From the NCBI GenBank assembly GCA_021812145.1, contig JAKAOM010000001.1, positions 87,898 to 132,564 on the forward strand: a stretch of 44,667 nucleotides of DNA, given 5' to 3'. Both the position numbers and the translations under genes were made by a program. A model generated the notes under the pieces. That model was not told the origin of the DNA and did not search any database. It saw nothing but the letters and a program-made list of their open reading frames with translations. Source of the DNA: Candidatus Micrarchaeota archaeon. Lineage in GTDB: Archaea; Micrarchaeota; Micrarchaeia; Norongarragalinales; UBA8480. Positions 13,610 through 44,234 of the stretch are shown in pieces; the first letter of the stretch is position 1, and every line of letters starts with the position of its first letter.

Positions 13610-13747
13610 GCCGCAGTAGCTCAGCTGGTTAGAGCGCCAGTTTTTCTTGGATTTGCCTTGAAATAGGGCGTGACTCATAAATTCTAACTCAGGATTTGAC
13701 TGGATTGGGCTATCTGGAGGTGGGGGGTTCAACTCCCCCCTGCGGCA
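13610..13747 (+). tRNA. Elongator tRNA-Met(CAT) with two introns (30/31: 13641-13672; 37/38: 13680-13711)
   Basis: Removing both 32-nt introns gives a 74-nt cloverleaf GCCGCAG...CCAGA-CTCATAA-TCTGG...CTGCGGCA. Both junctions fold as BHB motifs. Confidence 0.9.
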
Positions 13748-15722: not shown

Positions 15723-16010
15723 GAGTGTGAGGGCGGTACCCCGCCTTTTGTTGTACGAAAAACACCGCGTGTTTTTCTTTTGGCAGCATTAATCTAAGCG
15801 GCTTTAAAAAAGCCTTGCGCCATACGGTGGGGCTCGTTTCACTTCGCTCGCGCGTTAAAGCATCGTTTTTGTCATTTGCTGAAAAACGCCGATCGAATGT
15901 CGTTTCTGCTCCCCACCCCTGCCTTAAGCAGGGAAGGTTTTGCCTTCTGTTTGATTTTTGGTGGGCGGAAGTTCCTCCCTATGAAGGGTAAGCTGCCCGC
16001 CTTCACGCTC
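15723..16010 (-). ncRNA. rnpB: RNase P RNA (archaeal, about 288 nt)
   Basis: Minus strand has GAGGAACTTCCGCCCAC, GCAGAAACG, TGAAACG and ACAAAAGGCGGGG; P1 GAGCGTGAAGGCGG/CCGCCCTCACACTC; P2 GGCAGC/GCTGCC. Confidence 0.9.
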
Positions 16011-25526: not shown

Positions 25527-25654
25527 GCAGGGGTGGCAGAGTCTGGTCAAATGCGCAAGGCTTAGGCCTTTTTGGTGTTTTCAAAAAGTAGGAAACCTTG
25601 TACCTTAGCGGTTGCCTGGGTTCAAAACAATATGTGAAAATCCCAGCCCCTGCA
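25527..25654 (+). tRNA. tRNA-Leu(TAG) with two introns (37/38: 25567-25594; 59/60: 25627-25640)
   Basis: Acceptor GCAGGGG/CCCCTGC+A; spliced anticodon arm CAAGG-CTTAGGA-CCTTG; long variable arm; both introns form BHBs. Confidence 0.92.
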
Positions 25655-33273: not shown

Positions 33274-33409
33274 GCCGGGATGGCAGAGTGGTAATGCGCA
33301 CGCCTGGAATTTTTTCTTCAGCTTTCAGTTGAAGTTATTGCTCGTGAGCGTGTGGCCGAAAGGCCTCCTGAGTTCGAAATTCGATTGTTCGAAAATCTCA
33401 GTCCCGGCG
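33274..33409 (+). tRNA. tRNA-Ser(GGA) with two introns (37/38: about 33310-33346; 59/60: 33379-33395)
   Basis: Acceptor GCCGGGA/TCCCGGC+G73; arm CACGC-CTGGAAA-GCGTG after splicing; variable arm GGCC-GAAA-GGCC. The anticodon-intron BHB is imperfect. Confidence 0.85.
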
Positions 33410-35651: not shown

Positions 35652-35751
35652 GCAGGGGTGGCAGAGTCTGGTCAAATGCGCATGGCTAAGGACCATGTAC
35701 CGTAGAGGTTGCCTGGGTTCAAAACCACTGGTGGAAATCCCAGCCCCTGCA
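35652..35751 (+). tRNA. tRNA-Leu(AAG), A34, with a 14-nt intron at 59/60 (35724-35737)
   Basis: Anticodon arm CATGG-CTAAGGA-CCATG puts AAG at 35688-35690; body nearly identical to tRNA-Leu(TAG); T-loop BHB. Confidence 0.92.
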
Positions 35752-35778
35752 TTTTTTGCTTTCAAAGGTGTTTTTTAA

Positions 35779-36126
35779 ATGATTATTGGTAGCGACAATC
35801 CTGAATTCCTTAGGCTTTTGGCTTTTCTTGAAAGAAAAGGAAGAAAGGAAAAAAGCGGTTTTTGGCTTCGAGTGGTGGAGCTTTTGAAAAAACCCAGAAG
35901 AAGGAGGGTGGAAGTTAATCTTTACAAGATCGGAAAATTCGACTCAGACTTTATAGTGGTGCCTGGAAAAGTTTTGGGAGTAGGCAATGTTGGAAAGAAA
36001 ACAATCGGCGCCTTGAGCTTTTCTGCAACCGCAAAAAAAAGGATAGAGGAGAGCGGCGGAAAGGCTTTGAGCTTGATGGATTTCGCCGAGAAGGTAAAAC
36101 AGGAAGGAGTTATGATTGTTGTTTAA
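35779..36126 (+). CDS. rpl18e: 50S ribosomal protein eL18
   Basis: PRRRRVEVNL.KI, VVPGKVLG.G, FSATAK..I...GG. Confidence 0.95.
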   Translation: MIIGSDNPEFLRLLAFLERKGRKEKSGFWLRVVELLKKPRRRRVEVNLYKIGKFDSDFIVVPGKVLGVGNVGKKTIGALSFSATAKKRIEESGGKALSLMDFAEKVKQEGVMIVV

Positions 36127-36145
36127 TTTGGTGATTTGAATTACT

Positions 36146-36547
36146 ATGGATTTGGATGCGGATGGAATGATTGTTGGACGACTTGCGGCTTTCTGCGCAA
36201 AACAGGCGTTGAAAGGAGAGGTTGTAAATGTATTTAACGTTGAGAAGAGCGTTTTCAGCGCTACAAGCGAGAAGGTTTTATTCACAAAATATTTGAAAAG
36301 AAGGGGAATACAGAACAAGGCCGACCCTGAGAAAAGCGCGAAGTGGCCAAGAAGACCTGATTTTTTCTTCAAAAAAATCGTAAGCGGAATGCTTCCGGAT
36401 GGAAGAAGAGGCAAGGACGCGCTTAAGAGAATTAAAGTTTTTCTTACTAGCGGAGGGGTAAAACCTGAATTGAAGAATTCCAATTCCCTGAAAGTCAAGA
36501 CTGTTACATTGAAGGAGTTGTGCGCAAAGTTGGGGTGGAATGAATGA
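36146..36547 (+). CDS. rpl13: 50S ribosomal protein uL13
   Basis: DADGMIVGRLA..AK..L.GE, PRRPD, GMLP, LC.KLGW. Confidence 0.94.
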   Translation: MDLDADGMIVGRLAAFCAKQALKGEVVNVFNVEKSVFSATSEKVLFTKYLKRRGIQNKADPEKSAKWPRRPDFFFKKIVSGMLPDGRRGKDALKRIKVFLTSGGVKPELKNSNSLKVKTVTLKELCAKLGWNE

Positions 36548-36987
36548 GCAAGAAAACAGATAAAACTGCTAAAAATGATAAAGCCAAGTCAAAGGCAAAA
36601 AAAACCGACGTTCTATACGCAAGAGGTAAGAGGAAGGAAAGCATTGCAAGGGTTACCGCGAAGCCGGGCGAAGGCTTGGTTTGGGTGAACGGAGGCCTTT
36701 TGGTAGGCAATGATTCAAGGCTTATCAGTTTGCAGGAGGTTTTTTCACTTGTTCCTGAAGTAAAGCTAAACTTTTTCGCGATTGTTTCAGGCGGCGGAGT
36801 GGAAGGTCAGGGCCAGGCTTTGAAAACAGGTGTGGCGAGAATACTAGCAAAAGTCGGGGGGGAAGAGATAAAGAAAAAATTTATGGATTTCGACAGGTCT
36901 CTTTTAGTTGAAGACGTTAGAAGAGTGGAGCCTAAAAAGTTCAAGGGGCCAAAAGCCAGGGCGAGATTCACCAAGAGTTACAGGTGA
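36544..36987 (+). CDS. rps9: 30S ribosomal protein uS9
   Basis: GKRKESIAR, GGGVEGQ, D.RR.EPKK..GP.ARAR..KSYR. Confidence 0.95.
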   Translation: MSKKTDKTAKNDKAKSKAKKTDVLYARGKRKESIARVTAKPGEGLVWVNGGLLVGNDSRLISLQEVFSLVPEVKLNFFAIVSGGGVEGQGQALKTGVARILAKVGGEEIKKKFMDFDRSLLVEDVRRVEPKKFKGPKARARFTKSYR

Positions 36988-37021
36988 TTTGAGTTATGAA
37001 AACAATATTAGGTGTTTTTTC

Positions 37022-37219
37022 ATGCTGATTCCAGTAAGATGCTTCAGTTGCAACAACCCTGTTTCAGAGAAGTGGGGCGAGTTTCAGGAGCGTGTTTCCA
37101 AGGGAGAGGACGCCGGCAGGGTTTTGAACGAGCTCGGAGTTGACAGAATCTGCTGCAGGAGAATGTTCTTGGGCAACGTCGACTTGATTGAGGAAGTCAA
37201 AAGCTACAGACGCTACTAG
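37022..37219 (+). CDS. rpoN: RNA polymerase subunit N (Rpo10)
   Basis: MLIPVRCFSC...LG..RICCRRM; start reset to ATG at 37022. Confidence 0.96.
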   Translation: MLIPVRCFSCNNPVSEKWGEFQERVSKGEDAGRVLNELGVDRICCRRMFLGNVDLIEEVKSYRRY

Positions 37220-37238
37220 ATTTTTTCATTTATAAATT

Positions 37239-38360
37239 TTATTCTTTTACTGAGTAGATTTTGTTGATGAAGCCGCGTTTGCTTCCTTTATCTTCTCTTT
37301 GCTTTTTTATCAATCCGTCTTTAAGCATTTCCTTCAGCAGGTTGTAGGCTTTTGTTTCGTTCAAACCTATTTCTTCTTCAATTTCTTTTTTAGGCGCGCT
37401 TCCATCTCTAAGCATTTCCATTATTCTATTTTTTATCAATTCATTCTTTGCTTTTTTGGCTTGGATTTTCAGTTTTTTTCTTTCCAGTGACTTGGTCTTT
37501 TTTTGAAGTTCGTAACCCCCATTTTCTATTTCGCTTGTTTTTTCCATTATTTTATTTATTATTTTACCCTTGTTTTTGAGTTTTTTCGTTTGTTTTTCCA
37601 TTTCCCAGAATAGGGCGGGCAGTCCTTTTTCTTCTTGGAGTGCTTTCTCTTTTTTTTGGCTGCTTTTGATTTCGAATTTTTTCTGCATTTCTAGAAGTTT
37701 TTCGCCAACCTCGCTTACTTCGCTTGTTTTTATTCTTCGTTTTTTTATCAGCTCTTTTAGTATTTTGAAGGTGTATGCCGGATCGGTTTGCATTGCTTTT
37801 GCTTTGCTGTTTGTCGCTTCTATTTGATTTTTAAGTTCGGGGAGCTCTTCTACAGCGTAAGGGCTTATTCTTATGAACTGGGTTGGGTTGACTCCTTTTT
37901 CTGAAATTGTTTTTGCGTGGATTATCATTTCGTTGAGTTGGCTTTCATTCAAAATTAACCTCTTCTTGCTTTTGTAGTATTTCGAGTTGTTTTCGATCTT
38001 GCTATTTTCAAGAATAGCGTCAAGTGCGAAGAAGGGGTCTGAGTGTTTTTTGATTGAGTTTGCGAGTTCAACAGCATTTTTGAGTGTTTGAGGGCTTGTT
38101 TTTTTAGCAATTTCTTTTATTATTCTAACCTGCATTTCAATGTTGTGGTCCTGGTTTCTGTGAATTTCAGCTATTTGCGATATTAAGTTTGGTTCAAGCA
38201 TTTCTTCACGGTATTTGCCCTCCCTTCCGACAGTTATTTTTTTGATGTTGTTTATTATTTTTTTATCATTGTTTAAACCAAGGTCCGCTAGTGTTTTTTT
38301 GATTTTATACTCCGCTTCGCTTTCACTAAACCTTTTACTGTTTTCCTCTTTTCTTTCCAT
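37239..38360 (-). CDS. Hypothetical helical protein with a C-terminal wHTH-like domain
   Basis: IMEMLRDG..PKKEIEEEIGLNETKAYNLLKEMLKDGLIKK...IYS resembles wHTH; the rest is K/E-rich and helical. Confidence 0.65.
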   Translation of the reverse strand: MERKEENSKRFSESEAEYKIKKTLADLGLNNDKKIINNIKKITVGREGKYREEMLEPNLISQIAEIHRNQDHNIEMQVRIIKEIAKKTSPQTLKNAVELANSIKKHSDPFFALDAILENSKIENNSKYYKSKKRLILNESQLNEMIIHAKTISEKGVNPTQFIRISPYAVEELPELKNQIEATNSKAKAMQTDPAYTFKILKELIKKRRIKTSEVSEVGEKLLEMQKKFEIKSSQKKEKALQEEKGLPALFWEMEKQTKKLKNKGKIINKIMEKTSEIENGGYELQKKTKSLERKKLKIQAKKAKNELIKNRIMEMLRDGSAPKKEIEEEIGLNETKAYNLLKEMLKDGLIKKQREDKGSKRGFINKIYSVKE

Positions 38361-38501
38361 TGTTTTTTTTAGTTGCAGTTCATTTTAATTAATCTTTTGG
38401 ATTGTTTGGTTGGTTTTTTCTAGATTTTTTGTTTTGGGTTTTTCATATCTGGTTTTTTTCGTGGAAAGTGTTTTTAACTTTCTTTTCCTTTTTTCTGCTC
38501 A

Positions 38502-38575
38502 GGGGTTGTGGGACAACTTGGTCAGCCTATCAGCTTAGGGAGCTGAAGATCCGAGTTCAAATCTCGGCAACCCCA
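38502..38575 (+). tRNA. tRNA-Pro(AGG), A34, no intron
   Basis: Acceptor GGGGTTG/CAACCCC+A; anticodon arm TCAGC-TTAGGGA-GCTGA puts AGG at 38537-38539; T-arm CCGAG-TTCAAAT-CTCGG. Confidence 0.9.
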
Positions 38576-38681
38576 TCTCAAATTGTTAATAGAAATATGT
38601 AAGTTATGTTTTCTTTGTGTTGTATATTCAAATGGTTTGAATAAAAGGTTTTTAAATATTGCCTTTCTTATTTTAATGTCA

Positions 38682-41600
38682 ATGAGCTTGCAGGATTCAT
38701 ATTATAGTTTTATTTCTAATACTCCTTTGAAGGGTGTGGCGATGGCTATTGAGAATGCGGGAATTCCAAGCTTTCCTGTTTTTATTATATTAGCTCTTTT
38801 GATTGTCGGAGGGTTGGGCTTTATTGTTTTTTCCAGTTTTTCAGGAGTTCAGCAGGGTTATTCTGTCAATGTTTTAAGTTCTTCCGGCCCTGTAAGCGGG
38901 GCTATGGTCACTGTCTCTTATCAGGGAAAGGTTTTGACAAATTATACTGACGACAGTGGGAACGCTGTTTTTTCAGGAGTTCCTTCAAACGCTCTTCCCA
39001 GCGTTTCTGTAAACGCCAGCGGGTTTTCTTTTGTTTCCAAGCAGGGTCTTTCTTCAGGAAGTCCTATTAATCTTCAAACCGTCCCTGCCAGCGTGACTTT
39101 AAGCGTTCAAAGCACTGGCAGCGCGCCTATCAGCAATGCAAACGTTCTGTATCAGGTTGGCGGCGGTGCAATTCAGTCAACTGTGACTGACGGTAACGGT
39201 AACGCTGTTTTGACTGTTGCTTTAAACTCTCAGGTTTCAGGAACAGTTTCAGCCAGCGGTTATCAAACTGGCAATTTTTCATTCACTGTTTCGCAGCAGT
39301 CTATAAGCGAGAGCGTGGTTTTGAATGCAATTACAACAACCACAAATAATCAGGCTTTGATGATGACTGCTCAGGATCAAAATGTTATTTCAAGTCCTGA
39401 CACCAACACTTCTGCTTATAATATAGACTCTAACAATAATTTCGCAAGCAACGCTAGCGTTTACGTGACTGTATCTGATTTGAACGGCAATCCTCTCAAC
39501 GCAACTGTTGATCTTTTCTTGAACGGCTCTTCAAACTCTTTCGCTTCCATTCTTGCAAGCAACGGAACAGCTGTTTTTTCTGTTGGCGTTGGAAGCAGCG
39601 TTTACGCCACAGCTTCTCTTGACGGGTACGCTTCTTCATCCTCAGCAGCGGATGTTGTTTCAGCCAGCGGTTTGAACTTGGCTGTTTCTTTAACGCCAGT
39701 TAATTATCAGAACACTACAAACGTTACTGTTAGCGTTTTCGCTAACTCTTCCAATGGAACGATTCCTGTTTCTGGAAGTATTTATTTATGGACCTATCCA
39801 TTACAAAACGTGGTTTACGAGAGTTCTTCTTATGAAAGCGGAGCTGTGATAAACGTTCCGGTTGGAGTTGGTTTTAGAGTAGGTGTTTTTTCAGCTGGTT
39901 ATTTAGCCCAAATTTCTCCTCTTGAGTTCGCTTTAAACTCTTCTCCTCTTGAAGTTAATTTTTCAATGGTCAACGCCACTCTTCAAAACTCTTTCACTTT
40001 GAATGTTTCAACTGTTGATTTCTACAACAACCCTGTTTCCGGAGCCTATGTAAGCGTTTATGATAAGGGAGTTGTTTTCCCTCTTGATATTCAGAATTTT
40101 CAAACTGATTTTAACGGGAATATTTCAATTCCAGGCCTTCCTCTTCCGATAAACGGTTTCAGCGTTTCTGCTGTTTCAAGCGCTTACTCTGGAAAAACTT
40201 TGCTTAACGCAAATTCTTCAATTAACGGGACTGTTTCAGCAACTGTTGTTCTCCTTCCACCTATAACCACCGTCAGTGTTGAAGCTTATGGTTTCGACGG
40301 AACTCCTTTGAACGCTACTTTTTCAAGCTATTTTGTTGATTCTAACAATCAGCCTCAACTGATAGATTCTTGCTCTTCTCAAGCTCCCTCCACCTGTAGC
40401 CTTAAAGTTTTTACTGGCGTTTCTCTTGTATTGCAGGCTTCAAGCAATCAAACTCCCGGCTATCTTCCAGCGGTTTACTCAAGCCAGTTCAATCCTAAAG
40501 ATTCTTATTTTGAGAATTTCACTCTTTACCCTACCAACTCTCCTTTGCTTGGAAGCTTCAATGTTTTCGGTCCCTGCAATTGGAATGACTCCTACTCTTC
40601 ATGCTCTAACGACACTTCTCTTTCTCCTTCTTTGTTTAACGCAAGCAACGGCAGTCTTACTGTTGGAATGAAGTATTACGCTGTTTTCAAAATCAACGTT
40701 AACACCACTGCCGATCATTACGGCGTTTATTTCTTGACTGGCAATTCAAGCGGTGATGTTTTAAGCGACAACGCTGCTTTGATGAAATTCCCTGTTGACA
40801 TGCTTACCTATAGTTCAAGCGATGTTTTCAATCCTGCCTATTTCAACGATAGCGGTGACACTGGGTTTAACAGCGGTTGCGGTTCAACTATTTTAAACAC
40901 TTCATTAGGTTTTTACAAGTGGGTTGAATCAGTATCTCAAATTCCTTCAAGCGCTTCTTCTTCAAGTGTTGCAACTTATACTGTTCAAATTCCTTTCATG
41001 ATAACCGCTTCTTCTCCAGAAGGTTTGAATGTTTTCTACAGGGTTTTTGAAACTTCCAACAATTCTTACATTCGCGATCCTTTCGACTCGAGGCTTAACG
41101 TTTCGGCTTCAGCGCCTGGAGTTCAGGAGTGCAACGCGGCGGTTTATACTCAGCGCTTCCATGTTTTTCAGGATAATAATAGTGAAACGCTTTGCAGCGA
41201 TCAGGCTTGCTTGAAGGTTTATTGCGAAGTGCCTGGAGTTTCAAGCCAAGCTCGCTGCTACAATGTTAACGTTCCTGCCTTCAGCTATCAAGGCAATGTT
41301 TTGAATGTTTTCTACAATATTTTAGACATGAATCCCGACAGTTTTGCCGGAACTCCTCTTTCAATAGGCTCTTCCGCCATCTCTCCTTTTGACAGCAATT
41401 ATCTAACCTTGGCTTACGCCAACCTAACTCCTGCCGGGAGTTACTTTAATAACATTGTAAACCAGACTATTTTCAACTCTACTGGGAGCGGGGTTTTGAA
41501 TTTAACCAATAATGGGAACGCTTCTGTTCAAAACATTGTTTTCACTTATGGTTCAAAGCTTTCCTTCACCACCAGCGTGAATTTAAGCAGCGCTCCGCAG

Positions 41601-44234
41601 CCAGTCTCTCTTCTTCCAGCCCTTCCGAGTGGCTATATAGTTAACTATAATCAAAGCGCGGGTAATTTAAGCCTTGACTTTTTGAATGGTTCTTCTTCTT
41701 CAGGCATTCAGTTTTATTCAGACCCTATAATGCCTGCCGACGCTGTCTTTCTTGTTTTGAATCAATCTTCTGTCAGCTGTGGTCAGGGAATGCAGGTTCA
41801 CTTAACCAACCTAACTGACCAGTGCGTTACAATCAACAGCATTCAGAACGATCCTGTTCTTTCTGGCTTGTCTTCTTACTTGAAGGCTTGGGGTGGCAGT
41901 GTTTACGTTTTAAGGTACGATCCAACCAACCCTCAATGCAGCGCTTTCTCAATAAACCCTAACGTGGTGAATAACTTCAACTCGAATGGTTTAAGCGTGG
42001 GAAATATATGCAATGGGGTTTACGCTAACTTTTCAATACAAGCTAACTCTACTAAACCCACTTCCTGCTCTCAAACCGGTTCAAGCAGCAACGGCTACTG
42101 CGCTGTAACTGAAAAGCAAGCGTGGAGCGAGTCTGCAATGTCCACTTCCGTAAACCCGGCAGGCAAAACAAACACTGTTGGCGTTTTGATTAACAACAGG
42201 GTTTACTCGCAGAGCGGAACGGTTCCGTTGAACAACACCAACGGCGGGGCTTTCAACAACCCTCAAATCAGCGTTCAGCAGCAGATAACCCTTCAAGACC
42301 AGGGCGGTTTTTTCACTATTTCAAGCATGAACAATTCAATTCCAACTCCTTTGATTAACGTTTCCGGTTCAACAACAATCCCTGCTCCTGCTTTTGACCC
42401 TATGGGTTATGGCGGCACTTCTCAAATTCCTGCCGACAGTTCAAGCGATTTCGCAGACTTGGTGGAGCTTTCAAATTCTTCATTCTACGGCAGCGCTTTG
42501 GCTGTTTTGAACAACACTGCTTTTAGAAGAAGTTTGCCGAACAGTTTCGGAACTCCTATTCAGCTTTCATCTTTCCCTTACAGCGCTTTCGCTTCTGTCA
42601 ATAATACTAACATTTCATTTGCTTTCGGCGCTGACTGGCTTGGAAAGAGCGGTTCTGGAAGCGTTGACTTCAGTTTTGCAGGCGTCAACACTCCAAGCAA
42701 TTGTACAACGCAGAATCAGAGAGGGGTTTACGGCTTGACTTTGACTTACTCTCCTTCCAACGGAACGGTGAGCATTCAGGCGAACCCGTTGAGTTTTGGA
42801 ATGCAGAACGACTTCGCGCACCTTCAAAACTTGAACGTTCAAATGTGCGGTACGATGAGCTTCAACCCTGCAACTCAGAACTTCCAGAACACCGGCGACG
42901 GGTGGTATTATTCTGCTTATCCAGGGACAGGAGGCACTTTAAGCGACGGTCATTCTTTCAACGTGAACATGGTTCACCCTGCTTACAATGCTGTAGCTTT
43001 CGTAGGTCAGTCGGTTGTAAACGCCGGCAAGGCTTTCGCTTCTTGTGGAGTTTCAGATCTTGCCGCTTACGGCGCTTGCACGGTAGCATTCAACATTGCT
43101 TTGGCTGCATCCTGTTCAACTTATTGTTCACCATCGGCTAGCGTGCCTTATGCTGGTTTTGCAACTTATGCTGCTTGTGATTCTTCTTGTATAGGTGCTG
43201 GCGGTAATGGTCCTGGAGGTGCTACTGCTAATCTTGCAGGAATAGCTGCTTTTCAAGGCAGTTTTTCAGCCGCGACGGCTGCTTTCGATGCTGCTCTCAA
43301 AAACATTCATATTGACGTAACTCCAGGTGATGTTTATGATGCTTCAAGCTTTTTAGGCACTCTTAACACCATTTGTCAGGTTGCAAGTCCTGTTGCAAAT
43401 ACTGTCAACAGCATTGTAACTAGTTACAAGGCAACAGAGCTTGTTTCTAAGGAGGCGTCTACAGATCAGGGAAGTTTGTGTGGAGAATATGCAAGTCAGA
43501 CTTTTGATTCTAGCTGCGCTTGTGGTACTGCTGTTTTTGGTTCCACATCCTCAAGTGCATTGTCAGTTTCAGGCTGTTGGATTGAGAAGGGACTGCTTGC
43601 TGCGTACTCTAGTAATTCTATTCAAACTGCTAGCTATAATACTAAAACTGCTATTGATGATACTAAAACTGCTTCTGAAAAGGCTGATGCTACTCTACAA
43701 ACTGCTGGAGCTGCATCTCCATTCAGTCAGAGTGCATATGACAAGGCATTAGTTGCAGATGAAGAAGCTGCAGGAAAACTTGAAAGCGCAAATGCCTTAG
43801 ATAACGTATTGAATAAACCAGATAGCAAGGTTGGCTGGCTTGACGAGTCTACTAGTGTGATTAATGGATTATGCACCTACCCCTACATGGTTTTGGGAGC
43901 TATTCAAACACTAGGAGCGTTCGGAGGAAACAAGCCGGCATATGTTGGAATTGGAATCAGTGGAAGCGGTTCAAGCTCCTGGCTTACGGCTTTTGAAACG
44001 GTTTTCGGAAGCACTGTTCAGAAGGGAAATGTGGATTGCTCAAACGCTTTTAACTTCGACCCATCACAGAAAACTTTTGCCTGGAATAATTTCGACCTTG
44101 TAAGCCTTAGGGCGTTTGAAGGAATGAATGGGCAGTGTTATTCTGCAAATAATATAAAGACCTACGTTCCTTCTGGAGACTTAAACCCTGGAAGTCAGAC
44201 TGCAACATTCTACATTTCAAGCAAGATTCAATAA
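38682..44234 (+). CDS. Giant membrane-anchored surface glycoprotein (about 1850 aa) with carboxypeptidase-regulatory/Ig-like beta-sandwich repeats and a Cys/Ala-rich helical C-terminal region
   Basis: N-terminal GIPSFP plus TM anchor; repeated PVSGA.V...TD..G.A.F motifs; many sequons. Start set by alignment with the paralog at 44307. Confidence 0.8.
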   Translation: MSLQDSYYSFISNTPLKGVAMAIENAGIPSFPVFIILALLIVGGLGFIVFSSFSGVQQGYSVNVLSSSGPVSGAMVTVSYQGKVLTNYTDDSGNAVFSGVPSNALPSVSVNASGFSFVSKQGLSSGSPINLQTVPASVTLSVQSTGSAPISNANVLYQVGGGAIQSTVTDGNGNAVLTVALNSQVSGTVSASGYQTGNFSFTVSQQSISESVVLNAITTTTNNQALMMTAQDQNVISSPDTNTSAYNIDSNNNFASNASVYVTVSDLNGNPLNATVDLFLNGSSNSFASILASNGTAVFSVGVGSSVYATASLDGYASSSSAADVVSASGLNLAVSLTPVNYQNTTNVTVSVFANSSNGTIPVSGSIYLWTYPLQNVVYESSSYESGAVINVPVGVGFRVGVFSAGYLAQISPLEFALNSSPLEVNFSMVNATLQNSFTLNVSTVDFYNNPVSGAYVSVYDKGVVFPLDIQNFQTDFNGNISIPGLPLPINGFSVSAVSSAYSGKTLLNANSSINGTVSATVVLLPPITTVSVEAYGFDGTPLNATFSSYFVDSNNQPQLIDSCSSQAPSTCSLKVFTGVSLVLQASSNQTPGYLPAVYSSQFNPKDSYFENFTLYPTNSPLLGSFNVFGPCNWNDSYSSCSNDTSLSPSLFNASNGSLTVGMKYYAVFKINVNTTADHYGVYFLTGNSSGDVLSDNAALMKFPVDMLTYSSSDVFNPAYFNDSGDTGFNSGCGSTILNTSLGFYKWVESVSQIPSSASSSSVATYTVQIPFMITASSPEGLNVFYRVFETSNNSYIRDPFDSRLNVSASAPGVQECNAAVYTQRFHVFQDNNSETLCSDQACLKVYCEVPGVSSQARCYNVNVPAFSYQGNVLNVFYNILDMNPDSFAGTPLSIGSSAISPFDSNYLTLAYANLTPAGSYFNNIVNQTIFNSTGSGVLNLTNNGNASVQNIVFTYGSKLSFTTSVNLSSAPQPVSLLPALPSGYIVNYNQSAGNLSLDFLNGSSSSGIQFYSDPIMPADAVFLVLNQSSVSCGQGMQVHLTNLTDQCVTINSIQNDPVLSGLSSYLKAWGGSVYVLRYDPTNPQCSAFSINPNVVNNFNSNGLSVGNICNGVYANFSIQANSTKPTSCSQTGSSSNGYCAVTEKQAWSESAMSTSVNPAGKTNTVGVLINNRVYSQSGTVPLNNTNGGAFNNPQISVQQQITLQDQGGFFTISSMNNSIPTPLINVSGSTTIPAPAFDPMGYGGTSQIPADSSSDFADLVELSNSSFYGSALAVLNNTAFRRSLPNSFGTPIQLSSFPYSAFASVNNTNISFAFGADWLGKSGSGSVDFSFAGVNTPSNCTTQNQRGVYGLTLTYSPSNGTVSIQANPLSFGMQNDFAHLQNLNVQMCGTMSFNPATQNFQNTGDGWYYSAYPGTGGTLSDGHSFNVNMVHPAYNAVAFVGQSVVNAGKAFASCGVSDLAAYGACTVAFNIALAASCSTYCSPSASVPYAGFATYAACDSSCIGAGGNGPGGATANLAGIAAFQGSFSAATAAFDAALKNIHIDVTPGDVYDASSFLGTLNTICQVASPVANTVNSIVTSYKATELVSKEASTDQGSLCGEYASQTFDSSCACGTAVFGSTSSSALSVSGCWIEKGLLAAYSSNSIQTASYNTKTAIDDTKTASEKADATLQTAGAASPFSQSAYDKALVADEEAAGKLESANALDNVLNKPDSKVGWLDESTSVINGLCTYPYMVLGAIQTLGAFGGNKPAYVGIGISGSGSSSWLTAFETVFGSTVQKGNVDCSNAFNFDPSQKTFAWNNFDLVSLRAFEGMNGQCYSANNIKTYVPSGDLNPGSQTATFYISSKIQ

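What the first reader, a model, noticed from the sequence alone, without database searches (positions are those of the whole stretch)
35652..38575. Two A34 tRNAs in an archaeon: candidate archaeal inosine-wobble (or unmodified-A34) decoding system
Seen: tRNA-Leu has anticodon AAG and tRNA-Pro has AGG, each fixed by a perfect 5-bp stem, while tRNA-Ser in the same region keeps GGA. Established: archaea read family boxes with G34/U34/C34 and, with rare exceptions, lack ANN tRNAs and A34-to-I editing; I34 is made by bacterial TadA (mainly Arg-ACG) and eukaryotic ADAT2/3. Inference: two such changes are unlikely to both be errors. Both tRNAs have G36/G37 (CNN boxes), as does G36 in the TadA substrate Arg(ACG). 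CTC and CCC codons occur in this window, so without G34 isoacceptors the cell needs a wobble deaminase or superwobbling A34. Prediction: tRNA-Arg is ACG rather than GCG, and non-CNN boxes stay G34.
Basis: partly seen in the sequence, partly recalled or inferred. Interest (0 to 1): 0.9.

Follow-up and report, generated by a model that had tools for sequence, protein, structure and literature searches.

The report
Archaeal Leu and Pro A34 tRNAs
Two transfer-RNA genes of a tiny acid-mine archaeon carry A at the wobble position where archaea normally have G; the change is real and inherited, the same pair was already reported in related ultrasmall archaea, and it probably works without the inosine editing used by bacteria and eukaryotes.

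Summary
tRNA-Pro(AGG) lies at 38502-38575. tRNA-Leu(AAG) lies at 35652-35751 and has a 14-nt T-loop intron that hid it from ARAGORN and Rfam. Contigs from three other runs show A at both wobble positions. All 3 species of the genus carry both genes, with a compensatory stem change in Leu.

Sister genera have Leu-GAG and Pro-GGG at the same places. No GAG or GGG tRNA was found in this genome, in a 94%-complete congener, or in a closed 952-kb relative.

The organism is a Micrarchaeota (DPANN) archaeon. In a 401-genome sample, Pro-AGG matched in 44 genomes, 38 of them among the 83 of one family. All 6 Leu-AAG genomes found also carry Pro-AGG.

No deaminase tracks the trait. Three A34 genomes that are 94-95% complete have no CDA-fold deaminase. 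This genome's only one looks like a dCMP deaminase and is missing in its congeners.

The most likely reading is functional A34 tRNAs that are not converted to inosine. No RNA data exist, so this is untested.

The same Leu-AAG/Pro-AGG pair was published for ARMAN-4/-5 in 2011, so this is a new member of a known kind.

The parts
35652..35751 (+). tRNA-Leu(AAG), class II, A34 at 35688. It lies directly after rpoD and before the L18e-L13-S9-rpoN genes.
   Evidence: Read by hand and found by my own finder. Orthologues in G050/G051 are AAG with a compensatory stem change; G056/G058 have GAG with the same variable arm and T-loop intron site.
35724..35737 (+). 14-nt non-canonical intron in the T-loop (about position 59/60; the exact register is ambiguous because of flanking A runs).
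   Evidence: Its removal restores a 7-nt TTCAAAT loop and an 86-nt tRNA. G050/G051 carry a longer, different sequence at the same site. Introns at 59/60 are cleaved by the ARMAN-2 endonuclease (PMC3239211).
38502..38575 (+). tRNA-Pro(AGG), no intron, A34 at 38537.
   Evidence: ARAGORN; Rfam 56.6 bits; 96% identical AGG copies in G050 and G051.
33274..33409 (+). tRNA-Ser(GGA) with a 37/38 intron and a T-loop intron. It keeps G34.
   Evidence: My own finder and hand reading; missed by ARAGORN and Rfam.
25527..25654 (+). tRNA-Leu(TAG) with two introns (37/38 and T-loop). This is the U34 partner in the CUN box.
   Evidence: BLAST hit of the Leu query; read.
35779..37219 (+). L18e, L13, S9 and RpoN genes between the two A34 tRNAs. 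This is conserved synteny.
   Evidence: ORFs. Leu and Pro lie on one contig about 3 kb apart in G050 and G051. rpoD-tRNA-Leu-L18e-L13-S9 is also found in G083.

Best explanation
These are two working tRNA genes in which the wobble base changed from G to A. [quoted passage not shown]

The proposed mechanism is inferred, not shown:
- A34 stays adenosine rather than becoming inosine.
- It pairs by Watson-Crick with the dominant CUU and CCU codons.
- It also reads CCC well and CUC less well by A:C wobble, helped by the strong C1:G36 pair and G37.
- The U34 and C34 isoacceptors (Leu-TAG/CAG, Pro-TGG/CGG) cover the rest of each box and back up the C-ending codons.

The switch recurs in Micrarchaeota. 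Pro-AGG is widespread in one family, and Leu-AAG is found only in genomes that already have Pro-AGG.
For: Shown:
- The genes are real, conserved and under structural constraint.
- No Leu-GAG or Pro-GGG was found in G000. All 6 Leu-like and all 4 Pro-like BLAST hits are accounted for, and my own finder adds none.
- None was found in G051, which is 94% complete.
- None was found in G083, a single 952,257-bp contig.
- In G000 and G083 every other box keeps G34: Ser-GGA, Thr-GGT, Ala-GGC, Val-GAC, Gly-GCC, Arg-GCG, Ile-GAT.
- Sister genera have GAG and GGG.
- Pro-AGG pattern: 44 of 401 genomes, including 38 of 83 in family f14.
- Leu-AAG pattern: 6 true hits of 401. All 6 are among the 44.
- Three f14 genomes with Pro-AGG (G231, G113, G138) still have Leu-GAG.

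Against a deaminase:
- G051 (94% complete), G138 (95%) and G113 (94%) have no PF00383 or PF14437 match in six frames.
- PF00383 hits 23 of 44 Pro-AGG genomes against 249 of 357 others.
- PF02137 hits 0 of 5.
- G000's only CDA-fold protein is absent from G050 and G051. A homologue is present in G008, which has GAG and GGG.
- That protein resembles dCMP deaminases most closely.

Codon usage, given as C/(U+C), against the mean of five G34 boxes:
- G000: Leu 0.149, Pro 0.235, others 0.343.
- G083: Leu 0.208, Pro 0.255, others 0.480.
- G415: Pro 0.177, others 0.408.
- G056 (sister with GAG and GGG): Leu 0.572, Pro 0.516, others 0.509.

Published (PMC11066159, sections read):
- Unmodified A34 in an AGG anticodon reads CCU:CCC at 56:44.
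- Unmodified AAG with G37 reads CUU:CUC at 87:13.
- A Salmonella Pro tRNA with unmodified A34 behaves likewise (cited there).
Against: - No RNA-level evidence exists. No RNA run holds the locus, so A versus I at position 34 is untested.
- Absence of CDA-fold deaminases does not exclude an unknown enzyme. As I recall, the archaeal enzyme that makes m1I57 is still unidentified.
- A raw enrichment exists. The G000-type deaminase is present in 10 of 44 Pro-AGG genomes against 17 of 357 others, including all 3 species of genus g50. Within f14 it is only 6 of 38 against 4 of 45.
- If tolerance of unmodified A34 were the whole story, Ala-AGC and Gly-ACC should arise too. The E. coli data show they also read C. 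They were not seen in G000 or G083 and were not scanned elsewhere.
- U-over-C preference is also seen with I34 tRNAs, so codon usage does not discriminate strongly. In G000 alone, Val (G34) is as C-poor (0.147) as Leu.
- G000 is only 77.7% complete.
- The large Pfam scan missed a hit seen, so its absences are soft.
Confidence: 0.6

Rival explanations
1. Wobble inosine. A34 of both tRNAs is deaminated to I34, either by this genome's 158-aa CDA-fold protein or by an unrecognised deaminase. That would give a eukaryote-like I34 decoding of CUU/CUC/CUA and CCU/CCC/CCA.
For: - A34 replaces G34, as in I34 boxes of bacteria and eukaryotes.
- Both anticodons are ANG, the type E. coli TadA partly accepts (AAG about 15% modified; PMC11066159).
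- G000 has one CDA-fold protein with invariant HAE and CxxC.
- Homologues occur in all 3 species of the second Leu-AAG/Pro-AGG genus, g50.
- Raw enrichment: 10 of 44 Pro-AGG genomes against 17 of 357 others.
Against: - That protein is absent from both congeners that carry the same A34 tRNAs.
- It is absent from 34 of 44 Pro-AGG genomes.
- It is present in G008, which has GAG and GGG.
- By sequence and fold it is nearest to dCMP deaminases. NCBIfam gives ComEB 6e-9 against TadA 0.029. The top 14 Foldseek hits are dCMP deaminases, and TadA appears only from rank 20.
- Three A34 genomes that are 94-95% complete have no CDA-fold gene at all.
- Arg stays GCG.
- E. coli TadA did not modify an AGG anticodon.
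Confidence: 0.15
2. A34 carries some other, unknown modification that tunes its pairing, neither inosine nor plain A.
For: Unmodified A34 is rare in nature. Archaea have lineage-specific anticodon modifications. Nothing in the data excludes it.
Against: No candidate enzyme was found. Published experiments show that plain A34 suffices for AGG and partly for AAG.
Confidence: 0.1
3. The A34 genes are decaying or unused copies, and the U34 tRNAs (Leu-TAG, Pro-TGG) read all four codons by superwobble.
For: - Two single-contig f14 genomes (G103, G107) show neither Leu-GAG nor Leu-AAG by BLAST, so the purine-34 Leu tRNA may be dispensable in this class.
- G051 has a decayed Pro-tRNA fragment 1.6 kb from Pro-AGG.
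Against: - The cloverleaf is intact, with a compensatory stem change between species.
- The AGG anticodon is kept in 44 genomes across at least 17 genera with varying stems.
- Synteny is conserved.
- Codon usage is shifted toward U3 in exactly the A34 boxes.
Confidence: 0.05
4. Sequencing or assembly error at the two wobble positions.
For: None found.
Against: Three further runs show A at both positions. Two other species and three other lineages carry the same anticodons.
Confidence: 0.01

Closest known systems
[quoted passage not shown] 2011, NAR; PMC3239211, passages read)
   Same: Exactly the same two anticodons, with the G34 synonyms missing, in ultrasmall acid-mine-drainage DPANN archaea. 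tRNA-Ile(UAU) is also present, as noted there (G083; G000 C5:9447-9586 by my reading).
   Different: ARMAN-4/-5 are, as I recall, Parvarchaeota, a different lineage. Here the trait sits in Micrarchaeota, whose published member ARMAN-2 has Pro-GGG. Within Micrarchaeota it arose more than once. That paper proposed no mechanism and reported no distribution. Its supplementary figure could not be seen.
Eukaryotic ADAT2/ADAT3 wobble-inosine decoding
   Same: A34 replaces G34 in Leu and Pro boxes, and the G34 gene is absent.
   Different: Only 2 of the 8 eukaryotic boxes are affected. Arg, Ala, Thr, Val, Ser and Ile stay G34. No ADAT2/TadA-like enzyme tracks the trait.
Bacterial TadA with tRNA-Arg(ACG), extended to tRNA-Leu(AAG) in Leuconostocaceae/Lactobacillales (PMC8007984 passages; PMC13249217 listing only)
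   Same: Leu-AAG replaces Leu-GAG, and the anticodon is of ANG type.
   Different: The canonical substrate Arg-ACG is absent here, and no TadA orthologue was found.
Natural or engineered unmodified-A34 decoders: the Salmonella Pro tRNA A34 mutant and M. jannaschii-derived AGG/AAG tRNAs in E. coli (PMC11066159), and Mollicutes lacking TadA (PMC3711424, abstract start only)
   Same: A34 in four-codon boxes with G/C-rich first two positions. AGG reads CCU and CCC about equally without inosine. The order Pro before Leu matches the measured tolerance.
   Different: Those are mutants, engineered tRNAs or bacteria. Here the state is fixed and recurrent in natural archaeal lineages, and its modification status is unknown.

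Membership tests
ARMAN-type A34 sparing (Leu-AAG + Pro-AGG in place of GAG/GGG) | tRNA-Leu gene for the CUN box with A at position 34 | tested here: met
   Loop CTAAGGA on a perfect 5-bp stem; conserved in G050 and G051.
ARMAN-type A34 sparing (Leu-AAG + Pro-AGG in place of GAG/GGG) | tRNA-Pro gene with A at position 34 | tested here: met
   ARAGORN agg; Rfam 56.6 bits.
ARMAN-type A34 sparing (Leu-AAG + Pro-AGG in place of GAG/GGG) | Synonymous G34 tRNAs (Leu-GAG, Pro-GGG) absent | tested here: met
   None among the BLAST hits or finder output of G000 (77.7% complete), of G051 (94%) or of the closed contig G083. An absence in an incomplete genome remains provisional.
ARMAN-type A34 sparing (Leu-AAG + Pro-AGG in place of GAG/GGG) | Other family boxes keep G34 | tested here: met
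   Ser-GGA, Thr-GGT, Ala-GGC, Val-GAC, Gly-GCC, Arg-GCG and Ile-GAT in G000 and G083.
TadA / ADAT2-3 wobble-inosine system | CDA-fold tRNA adenosine deaminase co-occurring with the A34 tRNAs | tested here: not met
   No PF00383 or PF14437 match in G051, G138 or G113. PF00383 hits 23 of 44 Pro-AGG genomes against 249 of 357 others. G000's protein scores E 0.029 against NCBIfam TadA.
TadA / ADAT2-3 wobble-inosine system | tRNA-Arg(ACG) in place of Arg(GCG) | tested here: not met
   Arg-GCG is present in G000 (C23:4699-4804) and in G083 (461310-461383). No ACG tRNA was seen.
TadA / ADAT2-3 wobble-inosine system | Inosine at position 34 in the mature tRNA | not testable with these tools
   No RNA run is listed for the locus. 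Only DNA contigs could be laid.
dCMP deaminase (ComEB/DCTD type), for the 158-aa protein at G000:C5:7810-8283 | CDA fold with H-A-E and C-x-x-C zinc ligands | tested here: met
   H78, A79, E80, C117 and C120 are invariant in 24 sequences. AF2 model pLDDT is 93.7.
dCMP deaminase (ComEB/DCTD type), for the 158-aa protein at G000:C5:7810-8283 | Scores as a family member by curated model | tested here: inconclusive
   ComEB is the best NCBIfam hit but scores 36 bits against a cut-off of 219. PDB phmmer and the top 14 Foldseek hits are all dCMP deaminases, with TM only 0.52-0.62. The JGI name for homologues is 'dCMP deaminase'.
Unmodified-A34 decoders | Adenosine, not inosine, at position 34 of the mature tRNA | not testable with these tools
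   Inferred only, from the lack of a co-occurring deaminase and from published decoding data.

The most novel reading that the evidence does not exclude
[quoted passage not shown] The enzyme would be one not recognisable as TadA/ADAT2: for example the divergent four-extra-cysteine deaminase family found in G000 and in all three g50 species, or a non-CDA enzyme. This would be the first wobble inosine in Archaea, and an independent origin of the eukaryote-like I34 strategy.
Probability: 0.15. Interest if true: 0.85.

Novelty: new member of a known kind. Interest (0 to 1): 0.5.

Why it matters
Reviews still state that Archaea have no ANN anticodons and no A34 deaminase (PMC8007984, PMC8879553; passages read). 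The 2011 ARMAN-4/-5 note has been largely overlooked.

This case adds three things:
- The same Leu-AAG/Pro-AGG pair arose again in a different DPANN phylum.
- Pro-AGG is common in a whole Micrarchaeia family.
- Leu-AAG appears only on a Pro-AGG background.

That ordering matches laboratory measurements of how well plain A34 reads C-ending codons.

One carrier (G083) shares an identical S2 protein with the organism NCBI names Candidatus Mancarchaeum acidiphilum. As I recall, that organism grows in co-culture. The open question of inosine versus bare adenosine at an archaeal wobble position is therefore directly testable.

Tried and rejected
- Sequencing error: rejected.
- ARAGORN's 'tRNA-Ser(aga)' at C3:19834-19927 and two 'tRNA-Leu(aag)' at C26:38553 and 40055. 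By hand these are Gly-TCC with a stem intron and two Leu-TAA copies. They are not further A34 tRNAs.
- G086 hit of the Leu-AAG pattern: not a tRNA.
- Unique depletion of CTC/CCC within G000 alone: not unique, because GTC is as low with a G34 tRNA. The signal appears only when compared with sister genomes.
- G000's 158-aa deaminase as the A34 deaminase: not supported.
- Synteny test of its absence in G051 through the neighbouring HAD gene: uninformative, with only 26% identity hits elsewhere.
- ADAR/ADAT1-type domain PF02137: 0 of 5 genomes.
- RNA evidence: no RNA holder is listed for the locus. Read laying could use DNA contigs only.
- Control for the Leu pattern: the GAG version matches only 20 of 68 genomes of the order and misses G056 and G058, whose GAG I read directly. 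The Leu-AAG count of 6 of 401 is therefore a lower bound.
- MFE folding of the tRNAs gives acceptor, anticodon and T arms but not a clean cloverleaf. It was not used as evidence.
- Literature searches for A34 in DPANN or Micrarchaeota found nothing on this beyond PMC3239211, which was found.
- Rafels-Ybern 2018 (PMC6103674) is not held. What I say of it is recalled.
- The supplementary figure and table of PMC3239211 could not be seen and may list further details of the ARMAN tRNAs.
- Not attempted: complex prediction, the protein-atlas search, the search of protein representatives and build_rna_model.


Full report
WHAT IS THERE

The window is G000:C26:87898-132564 of a 757-kb, 26-contig genome that is 77.7% complete with about 39% G+C. 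It carries an archaeal RNase P RNA and the archaeal S13-S4-S11-RpoD / L18e-L13-S9-RpoN gene row.

ARAGORN finds tRNA-Pro(agg) at 38502-38575. Rfam scores it 56.6 bits over the full model. Its loop is TTAGGGA on the stem TCAGC/GCTGA.

The Leu gene at 35652-35751 is missed by ARAGORN and by Rfam at gathering score. The cause is 14 extra bases in its T-loop. Read by hand, it has these features:
- a 7-bp acceptor stem and a class-II variable arm;
- the anticodon stem CATGG/CCATG and the loop CTAAGGA;
- a length of 86 nt once the insertion is removed, equal to intron-less Leu tRNAs of relatives.

Both tRNAs have G36 and G37.

With my own intron-tolerant finder and hand reading, the window holds at least six tRNA genes. 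ARAGORN saw two of them and Rfam three.

IS IT REAL

Contigs of three other sequencing runs (X2, X3, X4; same study, other samples; X1 left out as the possible source) cover both wobble positions. They show no other letter there, while differing at a handful of other sites.

The two other species of the genus in the genome collection, G050 and G051, carry both genes:
- Pro-AGG is 96% identical.
- Leu-AAG is 85-86% identical.
- The Leu anticodon stem has changed on both sides (C27:G43 to T27:A43).
- The T-loop intron has a different sequence at the same site.
- In both species the two genes lie about 3 kb apart on one contig, as here.

This is inheritance under structural constraint, not error.

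WHAT THEY REPLACED

In the sister genera of the family, the orthologous Leu gene is GAG. It has the same variable arm and the same T-loop intron site (G056, G058). Pro is GGG in these genomes:
- G049;
- G058 and G008;
- G057;
- G056, read by the bulge-helix-bulge rule because its intron lies inside the anticodon;
- G059, which has the same kind of intron and which I read the same way.

Further members of the order have Leu-GAG and Pro-GGG.

In G000, all six Leu-like BLAST hits are AAG, TAG, CAG, TAA (twice) and CAA. The four Pro-like hits are AGG, CGG, TGG and a Ser T-arm. My finder adds no GAG or GGG.

G051 (94% complete) has Pro AGG, CGG (twice) and TGG, and Leu AAG, TAG, CAG and TAA.

My hand inventory of G000 comes to about 44 tRNA genes. 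It keeps G34 in Ser-GGA, Thr-GGT, Ala-GGC, Val-GAC, Gly-GCC, Ile-GAT and Arg-GCG.

HOW WIDE

A congener's record title reads Candidatus Micrarchaeota archaeon. The runs that hold the locus are mine-drainage metagenomes.

A strict pattern for Leu-AAG matched 7 of 401 genomes sampled across the phylum:
- Six are true tRNAs: G000 and G051; all three species of genus g50 (G083, G184, G359); and G415. The seventh hit is not a tRNA.
- The same pattern written for GAG matches only 20 of 68 genomes of the order, so 6 is a lower bound.

A pattern for Pro-AGG matched 44 of 401 genomes:
- 38 of 83 in family f14, in at least 14 genera;
- 4 of 94 in f13;
- G051 and G000 in f1.

One of the 44 (G241) is an unpublished genome.

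All six Leu-AAG genomes are among the 44. G050, which is outside that sample, also has both. Three f14 genomes with Pro-AGG that I read still have Leu-GAG: G231, G113 and G138. So Pro-AGG is the commoner state, and Leu-AAG is nested inside it.

Each lineage's Pro-AGG resembles its own other Pro tRNAs. In g50, the AGG and CGG genes share the same D-arm. This argues for separate origins rather than transfer from one source.

For Leu-AAG I count at least two origins. The g50 and G415 genes share their anticodon stem and a similar 37/38 intron, so they may not be independent.

G083 is a single contig of 952,257 bases. I fetched it whole. Its tRNA set shows:
- A34 only in Leu and Pro;
- Ser-GGA, Thr-GGT, Ala-GGC, Val-GAC, Gly-GCC, Arg-GCG and Ile-GAT retained;
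- no GAG or GGG.

Its S2 protein is 100% identical to one that NCBI names from Candidatus Mancarchaeum acidiphilum.

IS THERE A DEAMINASE

G000 has exactly one CDA-fold gene, 158 aa, at C5:7810-8283.

Its closest relatives by sequence and fold are dCMP deaminases:
- The best NCBIfam hit is ComEB/dCMP deaminase at 6e-9, far below the family cut-off. TadA scores 0.029.
- The best PDB sequence hits are dCMP deaminases.
- A confident AF2 model (pLDDT 93.7) gives dCMP deaminases as the top 14 Foldseek hits. TadA appears only from rank 20, with E-values about 500 times weaker.
- JGI names its homologues dCMP deaminase.

Its distribution does not follow the A34 tRNAs:
- It is not found in G050 or G051 by protein search or by two Pfam models.
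- Near-full-length homologues occur in 27 of 401 genomes.
- Ten of those 27 are among the 44 Pro-AGG genomes and 17 are among the other 357.
- This raw enrichment comes from family structure. Within f14 it is 6 of 38 against 4 of 45. In f13 the overlap is the single genus g50.
- G008 has the protein together with Leu-GAG and Pro-GGG.

Any CDA-fold domain (PF00383) is found in 272 of 401 genomes. It is found in only 23 of the 44 Pro-AGG genomes, against 249 of the other 357. That scan is less sensitive than the small ones, because it missed the G083 hit seen.

G051 (94% complete), G138 (95%) and G113 (94%) have no match to PF00383 or PF14437. No ADAR/ADAT1-type domain was found in 5 genomes.

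A TadA/ADAT2-type route to I34 is therefore not supported as the general mechanism. For G000 itself it rests on a protein that looks like a nucleotide deaminase.

CODON USE

In long ORFs, the share of C among U- and C-ending codons is lower in the A34 boxes than in five G34 boxes of the same genome (Val, Ala, Thr, Ser, Gly):

| Genome | Anticodons | Leu | Pro | Mean of five G34 boxes |
|---|---|---|---|---|
| G000 | Leu-AAG, Pro-AGG | 0.149 | 0.235 | 0.343 |
| G083 | Leu-AAG, Pro-AGG | 0.208 | 0.255 | 0.480 |
| G415 | Leu-AAG, Pro-AGG | 0.353 | 0.177 | 0.408 |
| G231 | Leu-GAG, Pro-AGG | 0.447 | 0.383 | 0.584 |
| G056 (sister) | Leu-GAG, Pro-GGG | 0.572 | 0.516 | 0.509 |

Five genomes are few, and partial sequence was used for three of them. 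Cause and effect cannot be separated. U preference also occurs with I34. I take this only as evidence that the A34 tRNAs are in use and matched to the codons.

WHAT IS KNOWN

- Reviews state that all ANN anticodons are missing in Archaea and that no A34-specific deaminase is known there (PMC8007984; PMC8879553).
- Fujishima et al. [quoted passage not shown]
- The same paper shows Pro-GGG with T-loop introns in ARMAN-2. It also shows that the ARMAN-2 splicing endonuclease cuts an intron at 59/60, the site of the Leu intron here.
- Experiments in E. coli with archaeal-body tRNAs show that an AGG anticodon stays unmodified and reads CCU:CCC at 56:44.
- In the same system, AAG with G37 is unmodified and reads CUU:CUC at 87:13.
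- The same behaviour is cited there for a Salmonella Pro tRNA mutant (PMC11066159).

MECHANISM AND VERDICT

Shown: two functional-looking A34 tRNA genes replaced G34 genes in this genus. The same replacement recurs in Micrarchaeota, with Pro more widespread than Leu.

Inferred: A34 is not turned into inosine. It reads U by Watson-Crick pairing and C by A:C wobble, well for Pro and less well for Leu. The U34 and C34 isoacceptors cover the remainder. The nesting of Leu inside Pro matches the measured tolerance.

Two single-contig f14 genomes show neither Leu-GAG nor Leu-AAG by BLAST. This suggests the purine-34 Leu tRNA is under relaxed constraint in this class.

Unexplained: why Ala, Gly and Val do not follow.

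Confidence in the full statement is 0.6. Wobble inosine by an unrecognised enzyme remains possible at about 0.15 and would be the important outcome.

The same pair is already in print for related ultrasmall archaea, so I rate this a new member of a known kind. Its added value is a distribution, a negative deaminase result and a culturable test organism.

Noticed in passing
window 13610-13747, 25527-25654, 33274-33409, 35652-35751: Four of the six tRNA genes in the window carry introns. tRNA-Met/Ile2(CAT) has two introns flanking the anticodon loop. Leu-TAG and Ser-GGA each have a 37/38 intron plus a T-loop intron. Leu-AAG has a T-loop intron. ARAGORN found 2 of the 6 genes and Rfam 3, so standard annotation will under-call tRNAs in this genome.
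   Followed up: partly
window 15725-16008 (-): Archaeal RNase P RNA: Rfam RF00373, 96.1 bits, full length.
   Followed up: no
window 38583-44234 (+): A 1883-aa ORF rich in Ser/Asn/Thr/Gly, with an N-terminal hydrophobic stretch, starts right after tRNA-Pro(AGG). It is probably a giant surface protein.
   Followed up: no
window 37239-38360 (-): A 373-aa Lys/Glu-rich ORF of unknown function lies between rpoN and tRNA-Pro on the opposite strand.
   Followed up: no
G000:C5:7810-8283 (L001:1429-1905:-) and homologues (alignment A1): A divergent ~160-aa CDA-fold family starting MRYLSE. Besides the HAE...CxxC site, it has three further invariant cysteines and one nearly invariant (C28, C57, C60, C74 in G000 numbering), perhaps a second zinc site. 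Near-full-length homologues occur in 27 of 401 Micrarchaeota genomes. Sources also name Patescibacteria and Aenigmatarchaeota among the homologues.
   Followed up: partly
G000:C5:9447-9586 (-); G083 908728-908815: tRNA-Ile(TAT) genes. The one in G000 has two introns by my reading. This matches the ARMAN report that these archaea read AUA with a UAU anticodon rather than agmatidine.
   Followed up: no
L074 (G051:C48:4740-4890): A decayed fragment of a Pro tRNA (D-arm and 3' end kept, middle lost) lies 1.6 kb from the intact Pro-AGG gene.
   Followed up: no
G103 and G107 (single-contig genomes of family f14); L185: BLAST with a Leu tRNA finds only TAG, CAG, TAA and CAA, with neither GAG nor AAG. 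The CUN box may be read by two tRNAs there. G103 also has a lone 3' tRNA-Leu fragment, as left by an integrated element.
   Followed up: partly
L238 (G056:C6:22100-22420), L081 (G059): Pro tRNA genes with an intron placed inside the anticodon, after position 34. The wobble base depends on the exact splice site. The bulge-helix-bulge reading gives GGG, but a one-base shift would give AGG.
   Followed up: partly
G049, G057 (L066-L068): Sister genera with G34 tRNAs carry 154-166-aa proteins that match MafB19/TadA-like and dCMP_cyt_deam_1 models strongly (E 1e-23 to 1e-29). Their substrate is unknown. They show that such deaminases occur in this family without A34 tRNAs.
   Followed up: no
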